IMG/VR virus record: IMGVR_UViG_3300031998_000028
Span: 32,001-96,000 of that record
Strand: one strand, 5' to 3'
Source: a virus
Lineage: Duplodnaviria > Caudoviricetes
DNA length: 64,000 nucleotides
A model generated the notes under the pieces. That model was given only the letters and a program-made list of their open reading frames with translations. It did not search any database and had not been told where the DNA came from. A program made the translations under genes and the position numbers. Below, one piece after another: positions 3,171 to 50,060 of this stretch; within the stretch, counting starts at the first letter, position 1, and each line of letters begins with the position of its first letter.

Positions 3171-5504
3171 TTATAGACTTGAAATACTAATTACATGGTT
3201 ATTAGTTAATTTTATTAATCTGACGCCTTGTGTATCACGAAGGGACAGTGGAATATCATTGTACTTGATACGAATTTGAGTTGTTGTTGAATTAATGAGT
3301 ATATCTTCAGTAGAAACCAATGGTATAAAGTCACACATTTGTTCTGATTTTTGGATACGTACACCTTTAGTGTTAGTATTTGTAATATTAAAATCAGAAA
3401 GACGAGTAAGTTTACCATATCCATCTTCAGAAATACTGAATAGCTCTTTTGTCGTGGCTGGGATGGCTCGCGCGCTCTGTACGTAATCACCTGGATTTAA
3501 TTTCATACCCATAATGCCACGAGTTACACGACCAATAGCATTGATAGTGGATGAATTAATCATTATAAATTGACCTGCGCGTGACATTATGCCTATTTTT
3601 TCATCTATTAAAGTAAAGATAGAAGTAATTTCATCACCTGTATCTAGCTTTACAGCTTGCGCGCCGGTATTACGTTTGAGATTATATTCACTGAGCTTAC
3701 TTTTCTTTATGATGCCCTTACGAGTTATAAAGACAATAAAGCGATTTTCTTGTTTTGGATTTAGAATTACTGCGGCCGTGGCATTATCGGTAAGACCATA
3801 AGCAGAGAGATACTGTTTTTCTCCAATGGCAAAAGCATTGAGTTTTGTATGATAATAATTTCCTTTATTATTAAAGAAAAGAATTGTATCTGTATTTTGA
3901 CCTATAAGATTATCGACAATAAATTCATCAGAGTCAAGCTTAAATTTTGCACCGACTCCACCGCGGCGTTGTGTAAAGAGACTGGATGTTTCTATTACAA
4001 ATACTGCACCTTTGTTGGTGAAAGAAATAGAAAGTTGTTTTTCTTCTACTACTTCATCTTCATCGGAGATTATGTCCATAATTTTTGTGCGGCGCGCGTC
4101 ACCCAGTAGTTTAGAAATCTTTTGAAAACCTTTTTCAATTTCTTTATAGAAAAGAGTTTGGTCGTTGAGGATAGCATTAAGTTCGTCGCGCTTTTTCTCA
4201 AGTTCTGCTTTTTCTTTTTCAAGCTTTTCAACTTCCAAATGAGCAAGGCGTGCAAGCTTAAGGTCAAGGACGGCTTTTGCTTGGACATCATCAAGTAGGA
4301 ATTGTTTTGTAAGTTCAACGCGCGCCGTCTGTGAGGATGCACTAGACTTGATGACTTGCACTACTTCATCAATAGAAGCAAGACAAATCAAAAGCCCTTC
4401 AAGGATATGAATGCGGGCTTCTACTTCGTGGAGGTCATATAGAAATCCACAACGATAGACGAGTTTTTCATGTTTTAAATGCTCTTCAAGTGCTGCCTTC
4501 CATCCAAAAACTTGCGGGAAGCGGCCATCACGCAGCATTGTCATATTAATGCCGTAGTGAGATTGAAGTGAGGTATTTTTATAAAGTGATTTAAGAACTT
4601 TGGTTGGATTAGCCTTTTTGACGAGATAAATTTTTAAAAGAATTTTTTCTCCAGTGAGGTCGTTGTAGCGTTCAATACCAGGGTTGTCTTCGGATTCGAT
4701 TAAAGCATTAAGTTCTTCTCGGATTGTAGAAGTATAAACATTGTATGGGATTTCGGTCACTACAAAACAGTTATCTTTGGGGTCCCATTCGACCGTACTT
4801 CTTAACTTACAGGCCGCGCCCGTTCCATTTTTTAATGACTCTTTTACTTGGGATTCATTGAGTAAGGTCGCGCCCGTCGCAAAGTCTGGCGCGCAGTATA
4901 TATCTTCAAAGTCTATATCTGGATTCCACAATAATTTTATAAGTGCTTCATTGACTTCTTTAATATTGAATTGTGGAATCGAACTTGCTGCGCCAACTCC
5001 GATACCAAGAGAACCATTTACTATATTATAGTATCCTTTAGAGGGAAGAATTGCAGGATATTGCTTAGTATCATCATAGTTATCACGCCATTCTGCAATT
5101 GTGTCTTTATCTATATCTTCAATGATATGATTAAAAATCTCTGCCAGGCGTGCGGAGGTATAACGTGGAGCAGACCAGTTACCAGTCATTTTTGCATCGC
5201 CATTAGAACCTTCAACTTCGACAAGCGGATAGCGCATAGCAAAATCTTGGCTTGCGCGCATTATAATACCTTCACAAGAAGCGTCGCCATGAATGTAATA
5301 GTCTGCCATGGCGAGACCAATGGCGTTATTTGTCTTTTTGAACGGCTTACTATGCACAAGTTTATTTTGATACATAGAATAGAAGATTTGACGCGCAGAT
5401 GGCTTGAAGCAATCACGCACATCAGGAAGGGCGCGAGATTGTAATACTGCCCCAGCGTATGACGTAAAGGCAGTATTAATTATATCAGTCATTGTTTGGG
5501 ACAT
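3171..5504 (-). CDS. gyrA: DNA gyrase / type IIA topoisomerase subunit A
   Basis: RALPDVRD, YIHGD, catalytic APRYT, QRRGGVG GyrA-box-like motif and C-terminal pinwheel repeats. No TAG. Confidence 0.93.
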   Translation of the reverse strand: MSQTMTDIINTAFTSYAGAVLQSRALPDVRDCFKPSARQIFYSMYQNKLVHSKPFKKTNNAIGLAMADYYIHGDASCEGIIMRASQDFAMRYPLVEVEGSNGDAKMTGNWSAPRYTSARLAEIFNHIIEDIDKDTIAEWRDNYDDTKQYPAILPSKGYYNIVNGSLGIGVGAASSIPQFNIKEVNEALIKLLWNPDIDFEDIYCAPDFATGATLLNESQVKESLKNGTGAACKLRSTVEWDPKDNCFVVTEIPYNVYTSTIREELNALIESEDNPGIERYNDLTGEKILLKIYLVKKANPTKVLKSLYKNTSLQSHYGINMTMLRDGRFPQVFGWKAALEEHLKHEKLVYRCGFLYDLHEVEARIHILEGLLICLASIDEVVQVIKSSASSQTARVELTKQFLLDDVQAKAVLDLKLARLAHLEVEKLEKEKAELEKKRDELNAILNDQTLFYKEIEKGFQKISKLLGDARRTKIMDIISDEDEVVEEKQLSISFTNKGAVFVIETSSLFTQRRGGVGAKFKLDSDEFIVDNLIGQNTDTILFFNNKGNYYHTKLNAFAIGEKQYLSAYGLTDNATAAVILNPKQENRFIVFITRKGIIKKSKLSEYNLKRNTGAQAVKLDTGDEITSIFTLIDEKIGIMSRAGQFIMINSSTINAIGRVTRGIMGMKLNPGDYVQSARAIPATTKELFSISEDGYGKLTRLSDFNITNTNTKGVRIQKSEQMCDFIPLVSTEDILINSTTTQIRIKYNDIPLSLRDTQGVRLIKLTNNHVISISSL

Positions 5505-5733
5505 TATCATTCTCCTTTATTATTCGTTCATATCTAACATAAGGAGTACACTGACTAGTTAGCAAAGCCGCCCAGTTCATTCCAAGCATAAAACCAATAT
5601 CAAAATCTTTGGAATCAGCATAAGTAGAGTTTTGTATATATTTTTTATACTCACCAGACATAATATTATTTACAATAAAAGTTTGAAATTCTTTTTGGTC
5701 AATAAAAATACCACTTATTTTTTCGTTTTCCAT
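5485..5733 (-). CDS. Hypothetical protein
   Basis: 82-aa ORF with AGGAG RBS and its own TTGACT-17-TATAAT promoter. Confidence 0.65.
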   Translation of the reverse strand: MENEKISGIFIDQKEFQTFIVNNIMSGEYKKYIQNSTYADSKDFDIGFMLGMNWAALLTSQCTPYVRYERIIKENDNVPNND

Positions 5734-5801
5734 AATACATACTCCTTCTATTCTATATCTATTATATCATAAAAATTGAGAAAAGTCAAATTTGGCTTTT
5801 C

Positions 5802-7661
5802 TCATTCTCTTATTGTCTGAAAATCTATTTTATTAAAGACATAATCTTTTCGAGGTTCACCATCTTTGCCCATTAAAGCTTCAAGTAATGAAATAGAATC
5901 CGAAGCTGGCATTATCTGCTCAAAGCGTTGAAATTCTGGAGAAAACATTGAAGCGCGGGCTTGTGATGGAGTTAAACTACCAAGACCTTTATTGCGCTGG
6001 ACTTCACCTTTTACTTTTCCTTTAACTTTATTAAATTCATCATCAGAGAAGTAATAAGACTCTGTTTTTCCATTTTTCACTATATAGAGTGGGGAACGCA
6101 ACCAATAAAGGCGACCTTCTTGGATAAATTGCGGTGCGAGATATTGTAGACAAGCCATTATAAGAAGTGAGATATGACTTCCATCAGAGTCCGAGTCAAC
6201 ACAAATCCCAAGTTTTCCATAGCGTAATTTAGAAGCGTTATATTTGCCAGGAATTATATTCATCGCACTCAGCAGAAGTTTGATTTCTTCGTTCTGAAAT
6301 ACCTTTTCTTCGGGATTTGAAAGTGCATTAATAATTTTTCCACGGATTGCCATTAAACCATATTTCGTATAATCGCGCGCCTTTGATATGGAGCTGGCCG
6401 CAGAGTCTCCCTCAACTACCAACAGTATTGAGTCTGGCCCAAGTTTTTCTGCATCAAAGAGCTTATCGGAAGTAATCATTGATTTCTTTTGATTACGTTC
6501 TATTTCTTTTGTGGCTTCAAGAACTTGTTTGCGCGCTCGCTCGGCCGCGGCTTCTGCACGGGCTACCTTTTTCATTAATTCTACGATGCTTTCAAATTCA
6601 TCGGGATAACGCGCTTTCATATTTTTGAGAGCATTAGAGAAACAGTTGGAAGCCATTGTACGAAGATTTGTGTTATTGATTTTTGATTTGGTTTGGTTTG
6701 CGAAAGATGGTTGAGCAACAGAGCAATTAATTACATAGAATAGATTTTGACGAATGCTATCGCCATCAAAGTTTTGTTTTGAAAGTGAATTGAATGTGCG
6801 AGTAATTGCTGTTTTCGCTCCGGTGATGGGGCTGCCGCCTTCTGGACAGAGCAAACCATTTACAAATACATATGATTGCTCTCGTTTTGCGCCCCATTGG
6901 AAAGCAATTTCGAGCTTGTCGCCATTTGTATCAGTAATTGAGTCGTAGATAATAGACTTATTGAGGGGTTTTTCAATATTATCTTTAATGAAATCTTTTA
7001 TTCCATTCTTTGCGCAGTATCTATTTTCTTTATTAGTCTCTTCATTTTTAATTATAAAAGTAATACCGCTGTAAAGATAGGAAATATTTTTTATATCATC
7101 ACAAATTTTATCAAAAGAATAGCCAATTTCTCCGGTTTTAAAAACTTCGGGGTCTGGAATAAACCAGACTTCGGTTCCATTCGGTTGTGTAGTTTCTATT
7201 TCTTTATAGGAGTAAAGCTCGCCTTTTTTAAAATATGCTATCGCTTCAATTCCATCACGAAAGCTATCTACTTCAAATTCTAAGGCACTTAAACATACAC
7301 AAGAGCCTCCCACGCCGTTGAGGCCACTTGCATTTTTATATGCACCTTCCTCAAACTTTCCACCAGTATGAGATTTGGTATATACATCCACTAGTACTTC
7401 AGAGCCAGTTTCACTTTTGCCAAATGGGACGCCGCGCCCGTAGTCACGAATACGAATAGAGTTTTCTTTTTCGTTTACTGTAATTTCGATTTTAGTGCCA
7501 AAACCAGCTATTGCTTCATCGGTAGAGTTATTAATAATCTCTTTAAAGGCTTGATAAGTACCGTCTATATCATTACTACCAAGATACATGCTAATGCGGG
7601 TTCTAACACCCTCACGAAATGAAAGAGATTTTATATCTTTTATTCCATATGATTCATTCAT
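5802..7661 (-). CDS. gyrB: DNA gyrase / type IIA topoisomerase subunit B
   Basis: GHKL motifs EIINNSTDE, DYGRGVP and SGLNGVG; TOPRIM motifs VEGDSA, RGKI and DSDSDG; RNKGLG. No TAG. Confidence 0.93.
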   Translation of the reverse strand: MNESYGIKDIKSLSFREGVRTRISMYLGSNDIDGTYQAFKEIINNSTDEAIAGFGTKIEITVNEKENSIRIRDYGRGVPFGKSETGSEVLVDVYTKSHTGGKFEEGAYKNASGLNGVGGSCVCLSALEFEVDSFRDGIEAIAYFKKGELYSYKEIETTQPNGTEVWFIPDPEVFKTGEIGYSFDKICDDIKNISYLYSGITFIIKNEETNKENRYCAKNGIKDFIKDNIEKPLNKSIIYDSITDTNGDKLEIAFQWGAKREQSYVFVNGLLCPEGGSPITGAKTAITRTFNSLSKQNFDGDSIRQNLFYVINCSVAQPSFANQTKSKINNTNLRTMASNCFSNALKNMKARYPDEFESIVELMKKVARAEAAAERARKQVLEATKEIERNQKKSMITSDKLFDAEKLGPDSILLVVEGDSAASSISKARDYTKYGLMAIRGKIINALSNPEEKVFQNEEIKLLLSAMNIIPGKYNASKLRYGKLGICVDSDSDGSHISLLIMACLQYLAPQFIQEGRLYWLRSPLYIVKNGKTESYYFSDDEFNKVKGKVKGEVQRNKGLGSLTPSQARASMFSPEFQRFEQIMPASDSISLLEALMGKDGEPRKDYVFNKIDFQTIRE

Positions 7662-31836: not shown

Positions 31837-32346
31837 ATGAAAGCATATCTTGCAGGTTCTATCTTCTATTATGGGGACGAGCTAAGAAATACTGTATGGG
31901 CCGCAAAATTGCGTGAAGCTTTTCCAGAAATGGATTTGTATAGCCCTATTGAGAATACAGATATAAACGGGCGCGAGGGCAAGAAGAAGTTTGGTAGCCC
32001 CGCAGACATCGCGCGCGCCGATAATGAAAGGCTTGATAAGTCTGATATTTTGATTGCGTGCATTGATGGTGATGTGCTTCCCAGCGGCACATGCGCGGAA
32101 ATCGGCAAATTCCATGAAAAAATTGCCAATGGTGATAATAAGTTGTTGGTTGGTATTTGTACCGATAATCGCCAATGCTGCTTGACCTATAGCGAAGCAA
32201 AAGATTTGGGCGGCCGCGATATTGGTGCACAGCAATACAGTTATCAAAATATTTATGTAACTGGTCTTATCAAAGAAGTAGGGTATTTGGTTACAAATAT
32301 AGATGAAGCAATTGAAAAAATCTTTAGATGGTTAAATGGTGAGTAA
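31837..32346 (+). CDS. Nucleoside 2-deoxyribosyltransferase family
   Basis: YLAG..YSP..D...LDKSD..D..PSGT.AEIG motifs. Confidence 0.82.
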   Translation: MKAYLAGSIFYYGDELRNTVWAAKLREAFPEMDLYSPIENTDINGREGKKKFGSPADIARADNERLDKSDILIACIDGDVLPSGTCAEIGKFHEKIANGDNKLLVGICTDNRQCCLTYSEAKDLGGRDIGAQQYSYQNIYVTGLIKEVGYLVTNIDEAIEKIFRWLNGE

Positions 32347-33576
32347 ATGATTTATAAAGTAGATGATAAAGTTCCTTTTGGTAAACTTTTGTTATTTGGA
32401 CTACAAATAATGCTTAGTTGTTTTACAGCAACGGCATTAATCGCATAGATATGCGGCGTGCCGCTATCTGGCGCATTTTTAGGGGCAGGTTTTGCGACTG
32501 TTTTATATGCAACGCTAACTCATTTTCGTTCTCCTATGTTTATATCTAATAGTGGTGCTTTTGTTGCGCCAGTTCTTGCGGCCTTGGCGGCCGGAGGGTA
32601 TACTGCAGTTGCAGTAGGTGGTGTAACAGCCTGCTTGGTATATTGTATCTTTGGTATCATTTTCAGTCGTATTGGCGTTGATAAACTATATAAGTTTATG
32701 CCAAGGGTTTTGATAGGTAGTATTACTGTTGTAATTGGTATAAATCTTATGGGATTTATTACTGGTTATATTGGTGACACAGGGAATCTTGGAGTAGTAA
32801 TTGCTTTTATTACTGTTGCGGCAATTGCGCTTTCCAGCCATTATCTTAAAGGTACGCTTTCATTGTTCCCATTCTTAATAGGAACTCTTGTCGGTTATGT
32901 TGTGTCCATTCCATTTGGTCTTGTAGATTTTTCAAAATTTCAAGGCATTGGACTTTTTAATATTCCTGATTTAGCCTGTGCGCACTGGACTGTGGTTAGC
33001 TTTAAGAGTTTAATCCCTGTTATTGTACTTTATATTGCTTTTACAATTAGCGCAATTTGTGAATGTTTAAGTGACCATGCAGTACTTGGAAATATTATTG
33101 GTGAAGATTTATATAAAAATCCCGGCCTTTCAAGTATTTTCGTTGGCGAAGGAATCGCAAATTTGTCTACTGCATTTTTTGGCGGCCTGGGCGCATGTAG
33201 CTACGGAGAAGGCGTGGGCGCAGTTGGATTCAGTAAGTGTGCATCTGTTACAGCTACCTTGATGGCAGCTTTGATGATGATGGCACTTGCATTTCTTGAG
33301 CCAGTGCAAGCCTTTATAAGTTCGATTCCATCTTGTGTTATTGGCGGCGGTACAGCTTGTTTACTGTATGGTTTTATAAGTGCAAGTGGTATTAAAACCT
33401 TAAAGAATGTTGATTTGGATAATCAAAAGAATCTTATTATTTGTTCTGTAGTATTGGCACTCGGTATTAGCGGTATTGTAATTGGTAATGAAGTATTTAG
33501 TCTAAGCGGTACTGCTTTAGCTCTTGTGGCTGGTATTATTTTGAATCTTGTATTAAAGGAGAAGACAAATGCTTAA
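32347..33576 (+). CDS. NCS2 uracil/xanthine permease (UraA-like); code 15
   Basis: MIYKVDDK..GLQ; TAG at 32446; SGAF, signature-like SYGE and SSIP..VIGG motifs; many TM segments. Confidence 0.85.
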
Positions 33577-37834: not shown

Positions 37835-37909
37835 AACCCTATAAATTTTGACTTTTTCTAAAATTTATGATATAATAATTATAGAAAGTTGAGAAAGGGG
37901 AATAAAGAA

Positions 37910-38095
37910 ATGAGTCCGTTTGATGATTTTGATACGCAGCGTCAGTCCGATGAGGACGCTTGGGAGCGTGAGTTCCTTGAGTGGTTCAGCAAGCAGATTT
38001 CTCCGTATAAGGTCTATGAGATTGATTGTGATGACGGTACTCATGGAGACCTTATTTATGAGTGGACTGGCCATCCCGATTTTTCTCTTTCGTAA
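37910..38095 (+). CDS. Small acidic hypothetical protein
   Basis: Promoter at 37848 and RBS. Confidence 0.55.
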   Translation: MSPFDDFDTQRQSDEDAWEREFLEWFSKQISPYKVYEIDCDDGTHGDLIYEWTGHPDFSLS

Positions 38096-38097
38096 TT

Positions 38098-38173
38098 GGT
38101 GCCATCGTCTAGCGGTCAAGGATAGCAGACCCTCAATCTGCTGACACCAGTTCAAATCTGGTTGGCATCACCA
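38098..38173 (+). tRNA. tRNA-Glu(CTC)
   Basis: GCAGA-CCCTCAA-TCTGC; CCA. Confidence 0.92.
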
Positions 38174-38174
38174 G

Positions 38175-39052
38175 CCGTACCTTTAGTCTTTTGAGTTCGA
38201 TAACGAGGAGAAAAGACAGTGAGATTTGAGAGTATTCACTAATCAATAACTCTCCGGCGTTCTGGTGCGTCGTTAAGCTTAAAAAGCCAAACAGCCCTCG
38301 GCGGGTCAAGACACAACGTAAAATAGTTGCCGCCATGTCCAAATGAATGGGTTATGACATTAAACTGTACTCGTTTCCGCGGCTTGGTGCTGCCGCGTCA
38401 AAAAAGTAATCCGGTGGAATAGAAAGTTCGGCCACCTACAAAATAATGGGAACAGTCGCGGGCGCGCGATGGTAAGAAATTACGTATCAAATGTTTTGCC
38501 AACTTCTCTTGGCTGCAAACAAGAGTGCGGTTGTTGCAGCAACCAAAACGTAGACCGGATGCGTTAAGACCGGCGGACATCTCGCCCGTTGAGGAGAGAA
38601 GAGTGGGTAAAAGAGCTAAATCCCACCGCCAGAACATAAGGGCATATGGAATGGTTGGATGCTCGGGGCACCGTGGCCTTTTGCCAACACGGATGATACC
38701 TTGGAGACGTGGGTTCGAACCCCGCCCTGGCGGCTTTGTGGCTGCTGGGTAGTTTAGAAGGTCAAAACACCAGGGACATTAATGGTCGCGTAGGGAACCT
38801 CCTCGTGGTGCGACTGGACGGACAGTAGTATGCGATTACTGAGCCGAGAACTAATTCCCAGATAGTTTCAATCTAATATCGCATAGGATTGAAGTGTACT
38901 CCCCTTAAGCCCAAGGGCGCAGGTTGTGACCAGCGATACAACAGTAACTCGGGATGCGCATGAAATTTCGGCTATAAGGTACACAGCGAGCCGTAGAAGC
39001 AGTACAGCTATCGAATTAAAACTGGGGTAGCGGGCAGTATAATCATACCGCT
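38175..39052 (+). ncRNA. Large structured ncRNA candidate 2, containing a circularly permuted tRNA-like domain (38699-38775)
   Basis: Long-range pairings 38177-38186/38972-38982, 38194-38202/39009-39017 and 38365-38371/39001-39007; no credible ORF. Confidence 0.62.
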
Positions 39053-39057
39053 AATAT

Positions 39058-39134
39058 CGCGCAGTAGTCGAATTGGCGAAGACGCCGGCCCTTCAAGCCG
39101 GAGATTACGGGTTCAATCCCCGTCTGCGTGACCA
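39058..39134 (+). tRNA. tRNA-Glu(TTC)
   Basis: CCGGC-CCTTCAA-GCCGG; CCA. Confidence 0.92.
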
Positions 39135-40873: not shown

Positions 40874-40880
40874 CATATGG

Positions 40881-40955
40881 TCCCCTATGGTGTAATGGTA
40901 GCATAGCTGGCTCTAACCCAGCAGATACCCGTTCAAATCGAGGTTGGGGGTGCCA
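40881..40955 (+). tRNA. Amber-decoding tRNA (anticodon CTA), probably tRNA-Gln
   Basis: GCTGG-CT-CTA-AC-CCAGC; D arm TGGTGTAATGGTAGCA resembles the tRNA-Gln at 44487; weak 1-72 pair; G73; CCA. Confidence 0.88.
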
Positions 40956-46279: not shown

Positions 46280-46368
46280 AAGGCGCGCACAGCTAAATCT
46301 ATTATAGCATAATGGTAATGCACCCGACTTGTAATCAGGATATACGGTTCGAATCCGTTTAGCGCCTT
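46280..46368 (+). ncRNA. CAGC-stem (Y-like) RNA copy 4, carrying a tRNA-Thr(TGT)-like D/anticodon/T body
   Basis: AAGGCGC-GCACAGCTA...GCGCCTT enclosing D, anticodon and T arms; no CCA. Confidence 0.7.
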
Positions 46369-46379
46369 GAATAAATAAA

Positions 46380-46452
46380 AAGACACTTGCAGCAAATCTT
46401 TTCTTTAATCGCCATTGAATTATAATATTTTGATTAGATATTAGGGTGTCTT
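46380..46452 (+). ncRNA. CAGC-stem (Y-like) RNA copy 5
   Basis: AAGACAC-TTGCAGCAA...GTGTCTT. Confidence 0.7.
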
Positions 46453-46464
46453 GATACAAACTAA

Positions 46465-46580
46465 TAGACCCATACAGCAATCATTCTTATAGAGAATATG
46501 TTATTGGTTCGATTCCAATTATGCAAGCCATAAATTTTGCGTATTGAGCAATAGGTAGCTCAGTTCTACTAAAGGGTCTA
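46465..46580 (+). ncRNA. CAGC-stem (Y-like) RNA copy 6 with a circularly permuted tRNA domain (YrlA-like)
   Basis: TAGACCC-ATACAGCAA...GGGTCTA enclosing T arm, closed acceptor hairpin and D arm, in that order. Confidence 0.78.
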
Positions 46581-46633: not shown

Positions 46634-48160
46634 ATGAATTTTACTAACGCTCTTGATAAGGAGTTCAACTATAAGTTGACCGAAAATGGCGGCCTTGCGC
46701 ATAAGTCTACCTGTGACGCGCTCTATGATATGTTTGCCCTGGGTGGCGCATATCGTAGTCGTAGCGATGAGGATTGTGTCTTCCTTTTCATGAAGGCATT
46801 TGAGGAAAGTCCTACTTATGCTATGAAGTGCCTCTTCTATCTGCGTGACATTTTGCAGGGACAGGGCGAACGTCGCTTCTTCCGTGTCTGCATTAAGTGG
46901 GCCGCGGACAACCATCCTTTGGAGATGGAGCGCAATCTCAAGTACGTACCGGAATACGGTCGTTGGGATGACCTATATGCCTTCGTAGGCACCAAGCTGG
47001 AAGCGAGTATGTGGGCCTTCATGTATGAGCAGTTCCGTCTGGATATGGCTTCCAAGACTCCTTCTCTGCTCGGAAAGTGGCTCAAGTCTGAGAATACTTC
47101 CAGCAAGGAGTCTCGCGTCCTTGGCGCAAAGACTCGTAAGGCTCTCGGTATGACTGCGCCTGCCTACCGCAAGGCTCTGTCTTCTCTTCGTAAGCGCATC
47201 AATGTCCTTGAGCGTCTTATGAGTGAGCGCCGTTGGGATGAAATCGAGTTCGATAAAATCCCTTCTAAGGCTGGCCTCATCTACAAGAACGCCTTCGCGC
47301 GTCACGATGTGGAGCGCGCCCGCAATAAGGCTGTGCAGACTTACGAGCAGTTCGCTAAGGATAAGAACACTAAAGTTAACGCCAAGGCTCTATATCCTTA
47401 CGAGGTAGTCGAAAAGGCTATTGACGTGTTCGGTGGTATCTACTGGCGTTGGAACCGCCATGAAGTGCCTTTGGATGATACCAATCGTCTGATGGTCAAC
47501 AAGTACTGGGAGAATCTGGCAGAGTATATCTCTAAGCTGGATATGAACGCTCTTTGTGTTGTGGATACCAGCGGCTCTATGCATGGTACTCCTATTGACA
47601 TCGCAATCTCTCTCGGTATGATTGCGGCTGATAAGGCTCATGGTCCTTTCCATGGACGCTACATCAGCTTCAGTTCTCGTCCTCAGCTCATTAAGGTTGA
47701 GGGTGTGGATTTCGTAGATAAGGTTCGCCGCATCTATGAAACCAATCTTTGCGAGAACACCAATCTCGAAGCAACTTTCGATATGCTTCTCAATGTGGCT
47801 CAGAAGAACCACATGAAGCAGAAGGATTTGCCAGATACCATTATCGTCATCAGCGATATGGAGATTGACTGTGCATATGGTGGCTATGGTTGGAGTTCTG
47901 ACCATAGCGCGGCTCGTGCAAAGAACCGCACCATGATGGAGAATATGCGTCGTAAGTGGGCACGTGCAGGCTATAAGCTTCCTAAGATGGTGTACTGGAA
48001 CGTGGATGCGCGCCAGGATACATTCTTGGATGATGGCCCAGACGTAACTTACGTTAGCGGTGCAAGTGCTATCTTGTTTGAGCAAGTCGCAAAGGGCATC
48101 ACCGCGCAGGACCTCATGTTCGAGAAGCTCGACAGTGAGCGTTACGCAAAAATAAAATAA
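46634..48160 (+). CDS. Ro60/TROVE-like helical + vWA protein (DUF2828-type)
   Basis: N-terminal TENG..ST, LFYLRD..G.GER, YGRWDDL and KW motifs; vWA MIDAS VVDTSGSM, ISDME and YWNV. No TAG; GC-rich third positions. Confidence 0.78.
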   Translation: MNFTNALDKEFNYKLTENGGLAHKSTCDALYDMFALGGAYRSRSDEDCVFLFMKAFEESPTYAMKCLFYLRDILQGQGERRFFRVCIKWAADNHPLEMERNLKYVPEYGRWDDLYAFVGTKLEASMWAFMYEQFRLDMASKTPSLLGKWLKSENTSSKESRVLGAKTRKALGMTAPAYRKALSSLRKRINVLERLMSERRWDEIEFDKIPSKAGLIYKNAFARHDVERARNKAVQTYEQFAKDKNTKVNAKALYPYEVVEKAIDVFGGIYWRWNRHEVPLDDTNRLMVNKYWENLAEYISKLDMNALCVVDTSGSMHGTPIDIAISLGMIAADKAHGPFHGRYISFSSRPQLIKVEGVDFVDKVRRIYETNLCENTNLEATFDMLLNVAQKNHMKQKDLPDTIIVISDMEIDCAYGGYGWSSDHSAARAKNRTMMENMRRKWARAGYKLPKMVYWNVDARQDTFLDDGPDVTYVSGASAILFEQVAKGITAQDLMFEKLDSERYAKIK

Positions 48161-48554: not shown

Positions 48555-48628
48555 GTACCCCTGGTGTAACGGTAGCATATCCGGCTCCAACCCGGCTGGT
48601 CAGAGTTCAAATCTTTGGGGGTATGCCA
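48555..48628 (+). tRNA. tRNA-Trp(CCA)
   Basis: CCGG-CTCCAAC-CCGG; GCCA. Confidence 0.88.
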
Positions 48629-48665
48629 GCGCGCAAGCGTAAATTTTATTAAAGGCAGGTCAAAT

Positions 48666-50060
48666 ATGGAAAGCTTCTTTAATCTCAAGCATCGCAATAC
48701 CACCATTAGAACCGAGATTCTTGCAGGCATTACAACCTTTATGGCTATGGCATATATCTTGTTTGTAAATGCAGGTATGTTTGCCACACTCCCCGATGTA
48801 AGTTATGAAGGTATGTATATTGCAACCGCAATTTCAGCCTGTGTCGGTTCTCTTTTAATTGGTCTTATTGCCAATCTTCCCCTCGCACAAGCATCTGGTA
48901 TGGGACTTAATGCGTATTTTGTCTATTCAGTATGTCTTGGTTTGGGCTTTACTTATGCTAATGCCCTTGTAATGGTTTTGTTTGATGGTATTATGTTTAT
49001 AATACTCACAGCAACAGGACTAAGAAAGCTATTGTTTAATGCAATTCCGACGCCAATTAAAACAGCTATTTCTGCAGGAATTGGTTTATTTATTGCTTAT
49101 ATTGGTCTACAATCTGCTGGTATTATAATTCCTGATGCCTCAACAGCATCCACTATGTCATCTTTTAATGTGTTTAGTGGAGCAGCAAATTGGGCAACAA
49201 TTATGCCTATGCTTGTATCTATGATTACTATATTGATTATCGCGGCCTTGACATCTTTCAAGAAGCGTGGCGCGGTATTAATCGGTATAATTGCAGGTAC
49301 AGTTCTATACTATCTTGGTGGCTTTACAATTCCAGGATTTTATGATGGTTTTGCTTTCTCTACTATTAGCACAGGAAAAGCTTTTGCAGCATTTGGTAAA
49401 GAATCACTATTCGCTGTATTTCGTAATGGTTTTGACTTTAGTGCGTACATTGCCGCACATGGCCAAGCAAACTTTGTTATGAGTCTTGTCACAACAATGA
49501 TTGCGTTTTGTATCGTAGATATGTTTGATACAATGGGTACTTTGTATGGTGCGTGCTCACGCGGCGGCCTTATGAATAAAGATGGTGAAGTTCTTGCTCT
49601 TGACCGCGCAATGCTCAGTGATGCTATTGCCACCACAACTGGCGCAATGTTTGGTACTTCAACTGTAACAACTTTTGTTGAAAGTTCTGCTGGTATCGCA
49701 GAGGGCGGCCGCACAGGACTGGCCGCGGTTGTAACTGCTGGTCTATTCTTTATCTCAATGTTCTTTGCACCTATTGCTTCTCTTATCCCAGGCGCAGCAA
49801 CTGCGGCCGCACTTATCTATGTTGGCGCATTGATGCTTATGTCTCTTAAAGATATTAATTGGGAAGACGCAGAGGTTGCTATTCCGGCATTTTTAACTAT
49901 TACTTTTATGGCATTTAGTTATAGTATTAGTAATGGTATTGGTATTGGTGTCTTGTCTTATACAGTAGTTAAAATGTTTACTGGTAAGATTAGAGAAATT
50001 CATGGAGCAACTTGGGTTATTGACGTGTTGTTCCTCGCAATGTTTTTACTTAGTCACTAA
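48666..50060 (+). CDS. NCS2 AzgA/PbuG-type purine permease
   Basis: EILAGITTF.AMAYI, GMGLNAYF, DMFDT.GT and ESSAGIAEGGRTG motifs; many TM segments. Confidence 0.9.
   Translation: MESFFNLKHRNTTIRTEILAGITTFMAMAYILFVNAGMFATLPDVSYEGMYIATAISACVGSLLIGLIANLPLAQASGMGLNAYFVYSVCLGLGFTYANALVMVLFDGIMFIILTATGLRKLLFNAIPTPIKTAISAGIGLFIAYIGLQSAGIIIPDASTASTMSSFNVFSGAANWATIMPMLVSMITILIIAALTSFKKRGAVLIGIIAGTVLYYLGGFTIPGFYDGFAFSTISTGKAFAAFGKESLFAVFRNGFDFSAYIAAHGQANFVMSLVTTMIAFCIVDMFDTMGTLYGACSRGGLMNKDGEVLALDRAMLSDAIATTTGAMFGTSTVTTFVESSAGIAEGGRTGLAAVVTAGLFFISMFFAPIASLIPGAATAAALIYVGALMLMSLKDINWEDAEVAIPAFLTITFMAFSYSISNGIGIGVLSYTVVKMFTGKIREIHGATWVIDVLFLAMFLLSH

What the first reader, a model, noticed from the sequence alone, without database searches (positions are those of the whole stretch)
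38175..39052. ~880-nt structured RNA with an embedded circularly permuted tRNA domain
Seen: between two tRNA-Glu genes the order is CCTTGG (38699), AGAC, T arm GTGGG-TTCGAAC-CCCGC, acceptor-like hairpin CCTGGCGGC-TTTGTG-GCTGCTGGG, D arm GTTT-AGAAGGTCA-AAAC, then CCAGGG (38770-75) pairing back. The anticodon position opens into the rest of the RNA. Its ends show crossing long-range complementarity (38177/38972, 38194/39009, 38365/39001). Inference: a large ornate ncRNA displaying a tRNA elbow, or a precursor cut at the acceptor loop into a two-piece RNA. It is a second, independent permuted tRNA in the island.
Basis: partly seen in the sequence, partly recalled or inferred. Interest (0 to 1): 0.8.

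Follow-up and report, generated by a model that had tools for sequence, protein, structure and literature searches.

The report
Modular phage RNA with tRNA mimic
The 884-base gap between two tRNA-Glu genes of this cattle-rumen phage is non-coding RNA made of separately conserved folded modules: a widespread ~190-base pseudoknotted RNA that is in no catalogue, a closed "scrambled" tRNA look-alike of the Y-RNA (YrlA) type, and a ~240-base 3' module. It has not been shown to be one 880-base fold.

Summary
The permuted tRNA-like domain (38699-38775) is real. Rfam gives only a weak YrlA match. Six homologs keep the closing stem, T arm, capped acceptor and D arm, with compensatory changes.

The claimed long-range pairings do not hold in relatives. 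One of them is better explained by a local hairpin (38186-38217).

The spacer is a string of modules that occur apart elsewhere:
- **Core RNA (38495-38681, ~187 nt).** My covariance model found 100 distinct copies in rumen and gut phage contigs, mostly in tRNA operons. Covariation is very strong, including a 6-bp loop-loop pairing. No Rfam family matches.
- **tRNA mimic.** It sits in a variable linker. One relative has a real tRNA-Ala plus a small ORF there, and another has unrelated hairpins.
- **3' module (38783-39017).** It has invariant blocks and a palindrome that changes sequence but stays a palindrome. It is found without the core in other phages.

The block is probably transcribed with the tRNAs and released by RNase P/Z. 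Whether it then acts as one molecule, and whether it self-associates like GOLLD, ROOL or manA RNAs, remains open.

A Ro60-like (DUF2828) gene lies 7.9 kb downstream. An earlier first-reader note of this scan (e1-5746016) flagged a look-alike tract in another genome.

The parts
38098..38173 (+). tRNA-Glu(CUC) with encoded CCA. Its 3' processing would set the 5' end of the spacer RNA.
   Evidence: ARAGORN and Rfam tRNA
38186..38217 (+). Local 5' hairpin H1: GUCUUUU/AAAAGAC, a 3x3 internal loop, UUCG/CGAG and an AUAA loop.
   Evidence: Fold -10.4 kcal/mol, z -3.16. The changes in L004 and L129 fall in its internal and apical loops.
38174..38494 (+). Variable 5' domain. It includes the CUCUCCGGCG...CGUCGUUA hairpin (~38248-38278) and the GGUGGAAUAGAAA..CGGCCACC motif (~38411-38436).
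   Evidence: Blocks shared with L004, L129, L110, L087, L103 and L003. L004 lacks 117 nt of it.
38495..38681 (+). Core RNA, a new family. Elements: conserved GCCA 38498-38501; Pa 38506-11/38520-25; Pb 38529-33/38540-44; Pa-loop x Pb-loop pairing 38513-18 with 38534-39; Pc 38547-50/38562-65; Pd 38579-83/38594-98 with loop GCCCGUUGAG; Pe 38603-07/38622-26; Pf 38635-38/38645-48 with loop AGGGCA; pseudoknot PK2 38613-16 with 38661-64.
   Evidence: Model R1; 96 matches, 86 distinct rows in A9, 100 distinct cores overall. Covariation 0.506 against 0.139, 0 of 500 shuffles; Pa 7/7, loop-loop 6/6, Pb 5/5 and Pf 4/4 pairs with changes on both sides. PK2: own loop-tail pairs reach 5 bp or more in 64%, against 13% for mismatched pairs.
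38669..38695 (+). Small hairpin between the core and the tRNA mimic (CACCGUG / CACGG(A)UG). It is present only in win, L004 and L098.
   Evidence: fold not unusual, z -0.27
38699..38775 (+). YrlA-type permuted tRNA mimic. Elements: closing stem 38699-704/38770-75; AGAC; T arm 38709-13/38721-25 with loop UUCGAAC; 7-bp acceptor plus 2-bp cap and loop, 38726-38753; U8 A9; D arm 38756-59/38769-72 region with G18 G19.
   Evidence: Rfam YrlA 23 bits. Covariation in six homologs. MFE gives the same four-way fold.
38783..39017 (+). 3' module. Elements: M7 hairpin 38783-88/38811-16 around invariant CCUCCUCGUGGUG; invariant ACAGUAAC 38941-48; palindrome AUGCGCAU 38954-61; UUCGGCUAUAA 38967-77; GAGCCG 38988-93; ACAGCUAUCGAA 39004-15.
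   Evidence: Homologs in L004, L098, L103, L003, L114, L129, L086, L126, L127 and L128. The M7 stem has five different complementary sequence pairs. The palindrome is kept as seven different palindromes.
39016..39057 (+). Pre-tRNA element: hairpin UAGCGG/CCGCUA (39028-33/39048-53) whose loop carries CAGUAUAAU. It also scores as a promoter (TTAAAA-16-TATAAT).
   Evidence: Promoter scan 10/12. The same loop with a different complementary stem is in L101. Function not resolved.
39058..39134 (+). tRNA-Glu(UUC). RNase P cleavage at its 5' end would set the 3' end of the spacer RNA. It is the commonest tRNA downstream of the core family.
   Evidence: 27 of 69 downstream tRNAs
37848..37876 (+). Strong sigma-70-like promoter (TTGACT-17-TATAAT with TG) upstream of a 68-aa ORF, tRNA-Glu(CUC) and the spacer.
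   Evidence: 11 of 12. No + strand terminator-like site inside the spacer.
46634..48160 (+). Context only: DUF2828 + DUF7788/vWA protein that is predicted to fold like Ro60 (TROVE + vWA). It is preceded by three 'handle' RNAs (46280-46575).
   Evidence: Pfam. AlphaFold model (pLDDT 73) whose top 13 PDB matches are all Ro60/TROVE. Handle sequences.

Best explanation
The Glu-Glu spacer is a protein-free stretch of the phage's tRNA operon. It strings together at least four structured RNA modules that evolve independently. They are probably transcribed with the tRNAs from the promoter at 37848 and released when RNase Z and RNase P trim the flanking tRNAs.

The modules:
1. A variable 5' domain.
2. 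A ~187-nt core RNA of a new, widespread phage family. It has two hairpins whose loops pair with each other, a junction with conserved loops, and a 3' pseudoknot.
3. A YrlA-type tRNA mimic (T arm, closed acceptor hairpin, D arm, intact elbow). It occupies a variable linker in which relatives carry a real tRNA or other hairpins.
4. A ~240-nt 3' module with invariant blocks and a self-complementary segment.

Shown here: the modules, their folds and their independent distribution.

Inferred: the compact pseudoknotted modules accumulate as stable RNAs. The tRNA mimic is a closed, uncharged tRNA-shaped surface for tRNA-binding factors. Candidates are tRNA-modifying enzymes, or the phage's own Ro60-like particle, whose other RNAs carry the same kind of cargo. 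It is not a processing site. The core's loop-loop pairing and the 3' palindrome may join copies of the RNA in trans.
For: Non-coding and co-transcription:
- No sizeable ORF.
- Promoter upstream and no terminator inside.
- RNA-library contigs from two bovine-gut studies are identical to 38188-38338, 38307-38530 and 38453-38603. One of them spans the 5' domain and the core.

Core RNA:
- Found by a 17-mer in 40 viral contigs and by a 22-mer in 84 metagenome stretches.
- Model R1 gives E values from 1e-17 to 1e-55.
- Covariation 0.506 against 0.139 in shuffles and 0.05-0.07 in slid controls.
- It stands alone in 255-320-nt tRNA-tRNA spacers in many phages.
- 69 of 82 copies have a same-strand tRNA within 600 nt downstream, often 20-90 nt away.

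tRNA mimic:
-.
- Absent from the otherwise collinear spacer of L129.
- Separated from the core by a small ORF plus tRNA-Ala in L003.

3' module:
- In L086 it lies three tRNAs away from the core. In L126 it occurs without any core.

Closed acceptor:
- UUCG-capped extensions in L004 and L124.

Ro60-like link:
- The DUF2828 protein folds like Ro60.
- 'Handle' RNAs with the same T arm-acceptor hairpin-D arm cargo occur in L094 and L092 and before the gene in the window.
Against: - The order core / linker / 3' module between a tRNA and tRNA-Glu(UUC) is kept in win, L004, L098, L129 and L003, and in the distant L103. L103's contig encodes a DUF2828 protein only 59% identical. That conservation could mean the modules work together as one molecule.
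- No processing site between the modules is known, so the default product is one ~884-nt RNA.
- Transcript ends were not observed, because contigs cannot show them.
- The mimic lacks the 'handle' that the scan's earlier notes take for the Ro60-like protein's binding site. It also lacks a YrlA Ro-binding helix.
- The function of every module is unknown.
Confidence: 0.55

Rival explanations
1. One large ornate RNA of a new class, working like GOLLD or ROOL. The 5' domain, core, linker and 3' module act as a single ~880-nt molecule. It assembles into RNA-only oligomers through intermolecular loop-loop pairs (Pa loop with Pb loop, and the 3' palindrome) and displays a tRNA or tRNA mimic in its linker.
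For: - Module order is conserved across six phages, including the distant L103.
- GOLLD has a conserved region, a variable region and a linker that sometimes holds tRNAs. ROOL and GOLLD sit near phage tRNA islands (PMC12286853; PMC5737381).
- Only 3 nt (UGA) join Pa and Pb, while their 6-8-nt loops pair over 6 bp. By my geometric reasoning this is hard to achieve within one molecule.
- Pseudoknots predicted from covariation turned out to be intermolecular in ROOL, GOLLD and manA.
- The 3' segment stays palindromic while changing sequence. This is the same signal used to support OLE and GOLLD bridges.
Against: - The core and the 3' module occur singly in most phages.
- No long-range helix is supported.
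- L003 has an ORF and an AT-rich segment inside the 'linker'.
- The palindrome statistic is modest (combined p about 0.004, my Fisher estimate).
- No match to the GOLLD or ROOL models.
Confidence: 0.25
2. Two-piece RNA. RNase P and RNase Z cut within the acceptor loop near 38735-40. This leaves an upstream piece (5' domain + core + T arm) and a downstream piece (D arm + 3' module), held together by the acceptor and closing stems, as in cleaved M. smegmatis YrlA or two-piece tmRNA.
For: - The acceptor stem has the 7 bp that Chen et al. name as the determinant for RNase P cleavage of M. smegmatis YrlA. That RNA is cut and receives CCA in vivo (PMC4201824).
- The T arm, D arm and elbow nucleotides are intact.
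Against: - The hairpin continues beyond 7 bp and is capped by a UUCG tetraloop in L004 and L124. In L098 it is closed by a 5-nt loop over 6 bp. That suggests selection for a closed helix.
- No CCA is encoded and there is no G3:U70 pair.
- S. Typhimurium YrlA and D. radiodurans Yrn1 are not cleaved.
- The RNA contigs are uninformative on ends.
Confidence: 0.1
3. The tRNA mimic, alone or with its neighbours, is a Y-RNA-like partner of the phage's Ro60-like DUF2828 protein. The spacer RNA would then be a giant Y-like RNA of that particle.
For: - DUF2828 is predicted to fold like Ro60.
- The same cargo architecture occurs in 'handle' RNAs of these phages.
- At least four of the five mimic-bearing contigs also encode DUF2828.
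- The 3' module has a handle-like string, GAUA-CAA-CAGUAAC ... UAUCG.
Against: - No CAGC(A/U)A handle flanks the mimic.
- The handle-like closing helix of the 3' module is only 3-5 bp and is not conserved.
- The gene is 7.9 kb away.
- The core was found in only 2 of the 80 DUF2828 loci searched within 10 kb of the gene.
Confidence: 0.2
4. Decayed remains: a broken dimeric tRNA and junk spacer without a function of its own.
For: - Adjacent tRNAs (3' half followed by 5' half) mimic the permuted order. They gave most of the regex hits.
- Chen et al. warn that dimeric tRNAs can score as false YrlA.
Against: - The acceptor strands pair with each other as one hairpin, with compensatory changes. No anticodon arms flank it.
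- About 340 nt are nearly identical between win and L004, although their DUF2828 proteins are 93% identical.
- Covariation is strong throughout the core.
Confidence: 0.03

Closest known systems
YrlA (Y RNA-like A, Rfam RF02553; Chen et al. 2014, PMC4201824)
   Same: - A tRNA-like domain in the order T arm, acceptor-like hairpin, D arm, closed by a stem at the anticodon side.
- Elbow nucleotides are kept.
- It is also found in phages.
- The phage encodes a Ro60-like protein.
   Different: - Scores 23 bits against a gathering score of 69.
- No GNCGAAN0-1G Ro-binding helix.
- Embedded in an 884-nt spacer rather than being a ~100-150-nt RNA next to rsr.
- The protein is DUF2828, not a Pfam TROVE family member.
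GOLLD RNA (RF01998) and ROOL RNA (RF03087)
   Same: - Large structured RNAs of phages and prophages near tRNA islands.
- GOLLD has a conserved part, a variable part and a linker that can hold tRNAs.
- Both assemble through kissing loops, some of them palindromic (PMC12286853; PMC5737381).
   Different: - No match to either covariance model, even at E up to 10.
- The modules here also occur separately.
- Oligomerisation is only inferred.
manA RNA motif assemblies (bioRxiv 10.64898/2026.07.01.735769)
   Same: - RNAs under 200 nt, found in phages among other places.
- Loop-loop pairings that look like pseudoknots are in fact intermolecular and build cages.
   Different: - No Rfam match to manA.
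- Different fold and different hosts.
- No structural data here.
Handle RNAs next to DUF2828
   Same: - Same phages and same tRNA island.
- Same permuted or partial tRNA cargo.
   Different: - The mimic here has no 7-bp terminal helix followed by NNRCAGC(A/U)A.
- It is flanked by other large modules.
Two-piece (permuted) tmRNA
   Same: The gene order T arm, acceptor 3' strand, intervening loop, acceptor 5' strand, D region.
   Different: - Not called by ARAGORN or by the Rfam tmRNA models.
- No G3:U70, no CCA and no tag reading frame was sought or seen.
- The acceptor is a closed hairpin.

Membership tests
YrlA (RF02553) | Reaches Rfam's gathering score (69 bits) | tested here: not met
   23.1 bits, E 0.04 on 1.4 kb and 0.49 on 16.5 kb
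YrlA (RF02553) | tRNA-like domain: T arm, acceptor-like stem-loop and D arm in that order, closed by a helix | tested here: met
   Sequence, fold, covariation in six homologs
YrlA (RF02553) | Ro60-binding helix with GNCGAAN0-1G on its 5' strand (PMC4201824) | tested here: not met
   The nearest string is ACACGGAUG. Its proposed 3' partner GGUCGC pairs instead with GCGACU in hairpin M7, and it is not kept in L098.
YrlA (RF02553) | Encoded next to a Ro60/Rsr gene and bound by it | tested here: inconclusive
   A Ro60-like (DUF2828) gene lies 7.9 kb downstream. Binding cannot be tested here.
GOLLD / ROOL | Match to the family covariance model | tested here: not met
   No hit at the gathering score or at E up to 10
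GOLLD / ROOL | Phage or prophage RNA near tRNA islands, several hundred nt, with pseudoknots | tested here: met
GOLLD / ROOL | Forms RNA-only homo-oligomers | not testable with these tools
   Indirect signs only: the 3-nt Pa-Pb linker and the covarying palindrome
tmRNA (two-piece) | Alanine identity pair G3:U70, 3' CCA, tag reading frame, detection by ARAGORN or Rfam | tested here: not met
   Pair 3:70 is C-G or G-C; an invariant U68-G5 wobble is present instead. No CCA. Not detected. The tag frame was not searched.
DUF2828-associated handle RNAs (scan-internal) | 7-bp terminal helix followed by NNRCAGC(A/U)A on the 5' side | tested here: not met
   None flanks 38699-38775. ACAGCTA at 39004 has no complementary 3' strand.
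Ro60/TROVE (for the neighbouring protein) | TROVE ring plus vWA fold | tested here: met
   The top 13 Foldseek PDB matches are all Ro60/TROVE (E 1e-7 to 1e-3, TM 0.37-0.55). The vWA domain is also seen weakly by Pfam. Sequence search of the PDB found nothing.

The most novel reading that the evidence does not exclude
The core RNA, and in this lineage the whole core-linker-3' module, is a new class of self-assembling phage RNA. The Pa and Pb loops pair between molecules, hand in hand as in phi29 pRNA, manA, ROOL or GOLLD. The palindrome in the 3' module forms a second symmetric bridge. The result would be an RNA-only oligomer that presents tRNAs or tRNA mimics held in its linker.
Probability: 0.2. 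Interest if true: 0.85.

Novelty: new variant of a known kind. Interest (0 to 1): 0.6.

Why it matters
- **A new RNA family.** Phage tRNA islands are where GOLLD and ROOL were found, and their function is still unknown. This locus adds a well-supported family: 100 distinct copies and covariation as strong as in curated families. It is short enough (~187 nt) for structure work.
- **A testable question.** The family carries a loop-loop pairing that may be intermolecular, which makes "do phage tRNA-operon RNAs generally self-assemble?" directly testable.
- **tRNA mimics as cassettes.** YrlA-type tRNA mimics appear as exchangeable cassettes. They sit in the same slot as real tRNAs, in phages that also encode a Ro60-like protein. 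This links two poorly understood systems.

Tried and rejected
- **Rfam.** At gathering and at E up to 10, on the window and on ten related loci, only tRNAs and weak YrlA hits appeared.
- **blastn.** The spacer against 50,697 phage records gave no match.
- **Whole-spacer MFE.** Not unusual, z -1.07.
- **RNAalifold on the 3' module.** It returned only invariant pairs, because MAFFT mis-registers the variable helices. The same problem hit the M7 alignment. I replaced it with a per-sequence stem search.
- **First PK2 test.** Allowing G-U pairs and including stem bases gave no signal. I redid it with Watson-Crick pairs only and cross-lineage controls.
- **Other proposed pairings.** GCCA x UGGU and GCCC (Pd loop) x GGGC (Pf loop) never covary. 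They are weakened in L129 and in the GAUGGCAA-loop variants, so they remain unsupported.
- **RNase P-like and T-box-like resemblances** (GAGGA..GAAG, CAGAAC, CCGUUG). I considered these from memory and dropped them: no P4-like pairing and no Rfam hit.
- **Literature.** A search for DUF2828 found nothing relevant. The supplements of PMC5737381 are not held.
- **phmmer of the DUF2828 protein against PDB sequences.** No hit.
- **RNA-library contigs.** They cannot show ends or strand. The lack of cover on the neighbouring ORF is not evidence.
- **Model R1 in 150 genomes of the order of one MAG that carries the core.** Only short 20-25-bit hits, which I take as chance. Not found in those searched.
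- **Core within 10 kb of the DUF2828 gene.** Found in L003 and L004 only, out of 80 loci.

Full report
**Setting.** The window is part of a 114.9-kb IMG/VR virus record. The source is bovine gut or rumen. It carries a tRNA island of 33 tRNA genes at 36.2-50.4 kb, all on the + strand, including a CUA suppressor.

The finding is the 884-nt gap between tRNA-Glu(CUC) (38098-38173) and tRNA-Glu(UUC) (39058-39134). No ORF above 79 aa overlaps it under table 11, or above 94 aa if TAG is read as Gln. Its G+C is 0.46-0.51, against 0.32-0.42 in nearby AT-rich spacers. A strong sigma-70-like promoter lies at 37848-37876, and no + strand terminator-like site lies inside the gap.

**The tRNA-like domain is real.** On its own the stretch 38696-38778 folds into a closing stem, T arm, long acceptor hairpin and D arm. 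Rfam's only non-tRNA hit in the region is YrlA at 38686-38795. It scores 23.1 bits with E 0.04, far below the gathering score of 69.

Homologous modules occur in L004, L098, L103, L003 and the MAG contig L124. On their alignment:
- 88.6% of cells pair, against 78.1% in shuffles.
- Nine pairs change on both sides.
- The covariation score is 0.392, against 0.211 in shuffles (0 of 500 as high) and 0.03-0.13 in slid controls.

U8, A14, G18-G19 and the UUCRAN T loop are kept, so a tRNA elbow is plausible.

The acceptor strands pair with each other as one hairpin of 7 bp. In L004 and L124 that hairpin is extended and capped by UUCG. This is the architecture Chen et al. described for YrlA (PMC4201824).

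**The long-range pairings are not supported.**
- The partner of 38177-86 is changed in L004 without compensation.
- 38365-71 lies in a 117-nt block that L004 lacks.
- 38194-202 with 39009-17 shows one compensated change in L004. In L129 an A-to-U change in the middle of the helix is not compensated. L098 and L003 keep the 3' string but have no 5' partner.
- All these changes fit a local hairpin at 38186-38217 (7 bp, internal loop, 4 bp, AUAA loop). It folds at -10.4 kcal/mol with z -3.16. The L004 and L129 changes fall in its loops.
- The whole-gap MFE is ordinary (z -1.07).

**A new core RNA.** Comparison with L003 and L004 showed a highly conserved block. Its 17-mer AACATAAGGGCATATGG occurs in 40 IMG/VR contigs. 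A 22-mer from another part occurs in 84 metagenome stretches, and a 24-mer occurs in two Clostridia MAG contigs.

I built a covariance model on 30 sequences (R1). It finds 96 matches at E of 1e-15 or better in the loci searched, and 100 distinct cores overall.

On 86 distinct rows:
- 86.9% of cells pair, against 65.6% in shuffles.
- The covariation score is 0.506, against 0.139 in shuffles (0 of 500 as high) and 0.05-0.07 in slid controls.

Individual helices:
- Pa: 7 of 7 pairs change on both sides.
- Pb: 5 of 5.
- Pf, a hairpin inside the formerly 'invariant' 26-mer: 4 of 4.
- The 6-bp pairing between the Pa loop and the Pb loop: 6 of 6, with 93% paired. This pairing was not part of the model.

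The 3' pseudoknot PK2 joins the Pe loop to the tail. It uses about 14 different sequence pairs. Own loop-tail pairs reach 5 bp or more in 64% of cases, against 13% for mismatched pairs.

No Rfam family matches the core in the window or in ten other loci. In 150 genomes of the order of one of the MAGs, only chance-level hits appeared. The RNA therefore looks phage-borne.

**The gap is composite.**
- In many phages the core stands alone in a 255-320-nt tRNA-to-tRNA spacer.
- 69 of 82 cores with enough flank have a same-strand tRNA within 600 nt downstream, often 20-90 nt after the core. That tRNA is tRNA-Glu(UUC) in 27 cases.
- L003, a close relative, has a small ORF, a canonical tRNA-Ala and an AT-rich segment between the core and the tRNA mimic.
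- L129 has the same Glu-Glu spacer with a diverged core and the 3' module. Unrelated GC-rich hairpins sit where the mimic would be.
- L103 is a distant phage whose contig encodes a DUF2828 protein only 59% identical. It has the mimic 9 nt after the core.
- The 3' module lies three tRNAs and 1.4 kb from the core in L086. In L126 it occurs without any core.

**The 3' module.** It has invariant blocks: CCUSCWCGUGGYG, ACAGUAMC, UYCGGCUAUAA and GAGCCG. Its M7 hairpin keeps a 6-7-bp stem through five different complementary sequence pairs.

Between ACAGUAMC and UYCGGCUAUAA, 10 of 11 sequences carry a perfect palindrome of 6-8 nt. There are seven different sequences: AUGCGCAU, UGCGCA, GCGCGC, AGCGCU, GUCGCGAC, GGUACC and GCUAGC. 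In L127 the palindrome sits in a hairpin loop.

Per-sequence shuffle p values are 0.04-0.47. My Fisher combination over eight lineages gives about 0.004. Kretsch et al. used this kind of palindrome-to-palindrome change to support intermolecular bridges in OLE and GOLLD.

**Expression.** Four bovine-gut RNA libraries hold contigs on the gap. Three contigs from two studies are identical to the window (38188-38338, 38453-38603, 38307-38530). The last one joins the 5' domain to the core. Contigs of relatives cover the core at the highest depths. Contigs cannot show ends or strand, and DNA carry-over is possible. This is therefore only a hint of transcription.

**Link to the Ro60-like gene.** The 508-aa product of 46634-48160 matches DUF2828 and DUF7788, and weakly matches vWA. 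An AlphaFold model built from 23 homologs (pLDDT 73) has Ro60/TROVE structures as its 13 best PDB matches.

Three RNAs with a 7-bp terminal helix followed by NNRCAGC(A/U)A lie just upstream of the gene. Such 'handle' RNAs in L094 and L092 carry the same T arm-acceptor hairpin-D arm cargo and give weak YrlA hits. The mimic in the gap has no such handle. The core is not linked to the gene within 10 kb, except in L003 and L004.

**Reading.** The best-supported account is a co-transcribed string of autonomous structured RNA modules. The tRNA mimic is one exchangeable cassette among them.

Whether this lineage uses the string as one molecule is open. The conserved module order, and the absence of known cut sites, keep that reading alive.

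My geometric argument is inference, not a result. Pa and Pb are joined by only 3 nt, while their short loops pair over 6 bp. Such a kissing complex is close to a straight stack of about 18 bp, which a 3-nt linker cannot span. The pairing may therefore join different molecules, as was shown for manA, ROOL and GOLLD.

Cleavage at the acceptor loop has a precedent, but it fits poorly with the UUCG-capped hairpins.

Noticed in passing
window 46280-46575 and 46634-48160: Three small RNAs, each with a 7-bp terminal helix followed by NNRCAGC(A/U)A, lie directly before a DUF2828/vWA gene. The gene's model folds like Ro60. The first RNA carries an acceptor-less tRNA (46302-46361, Rfam tRNA positions 5-66).
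   Followed up: partly
window 40880-40955: A tRNA with anticodon CUA (called Pyl by ARAGORN). It recurs next to tRNA-Asn in L002, L003, L004, L126 and L129. This suggests TAG is read through in these phages.
   Followed up: no
window 39016-39057; L101/L104 after the core: A hairpin whose loop reads CAGUAUAAUCA sits 5-20 nt before tRNA-Glu(UUC). Its stem differs but stays complementary in L101 (ACGGG/CCCGU against UAGCGG/CCGCUA). It also scores as a promoter (TTAAAA-16-TATAAT). Whether it is an RNA element or a promoter was not resolved.
   Followed up: partly
L003:1482-1720: A 52-codon ORF and a canonical tRNA-Ala(UGC) are inserted between the core and the tRNA mimic, in an AT-rich segment. 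A similar AT-rich string (TTGATGGTTGTTTTAAGTAGTTTTTCTTCC) recurs in L114.
   Followed up: no
L138, L146, L155, L195, L204, L133, L170, L206 (metagenome loci): A sub-family of the core lacks hairpin Pe and the 3' pseudoknot altogether, and ends ...GCAUGCGGAA-GAAUCAGGU.
   Followed up: no
window 38551-38561 with 38570-38573: In the window's clade the Pc loop pairs with the strand just downstream: CCGG/CCGG in win, UCGG/CCGA in L004, GUGCACC/GGUGUAC in L098, CCUAG/CUAGG in L110. This extra pseudoknot is absent from the majority GAGCAAC-loop type.
   Followed up: partly
L093:12249-12700 and L093:3037-3355: A related core-bearing phage contig carries a tmRNA (71 bits) and a group I intron (64 bits) by Rfam.
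   Followed up: no
window 31837-33576 and 48615-50060; 3171-7661: Two Xan_ur_permease (NCS2) genes sit in and near the tRNA island. Gyrase A and B genes are on the - strand.
   Followed up: no
window 37889-38095: A 68-aa acidic ORF lies between the strong promoter (37848-37876) and tRNA-Glu(CUC). No RNA-library contig covered it.
   Followed up: no
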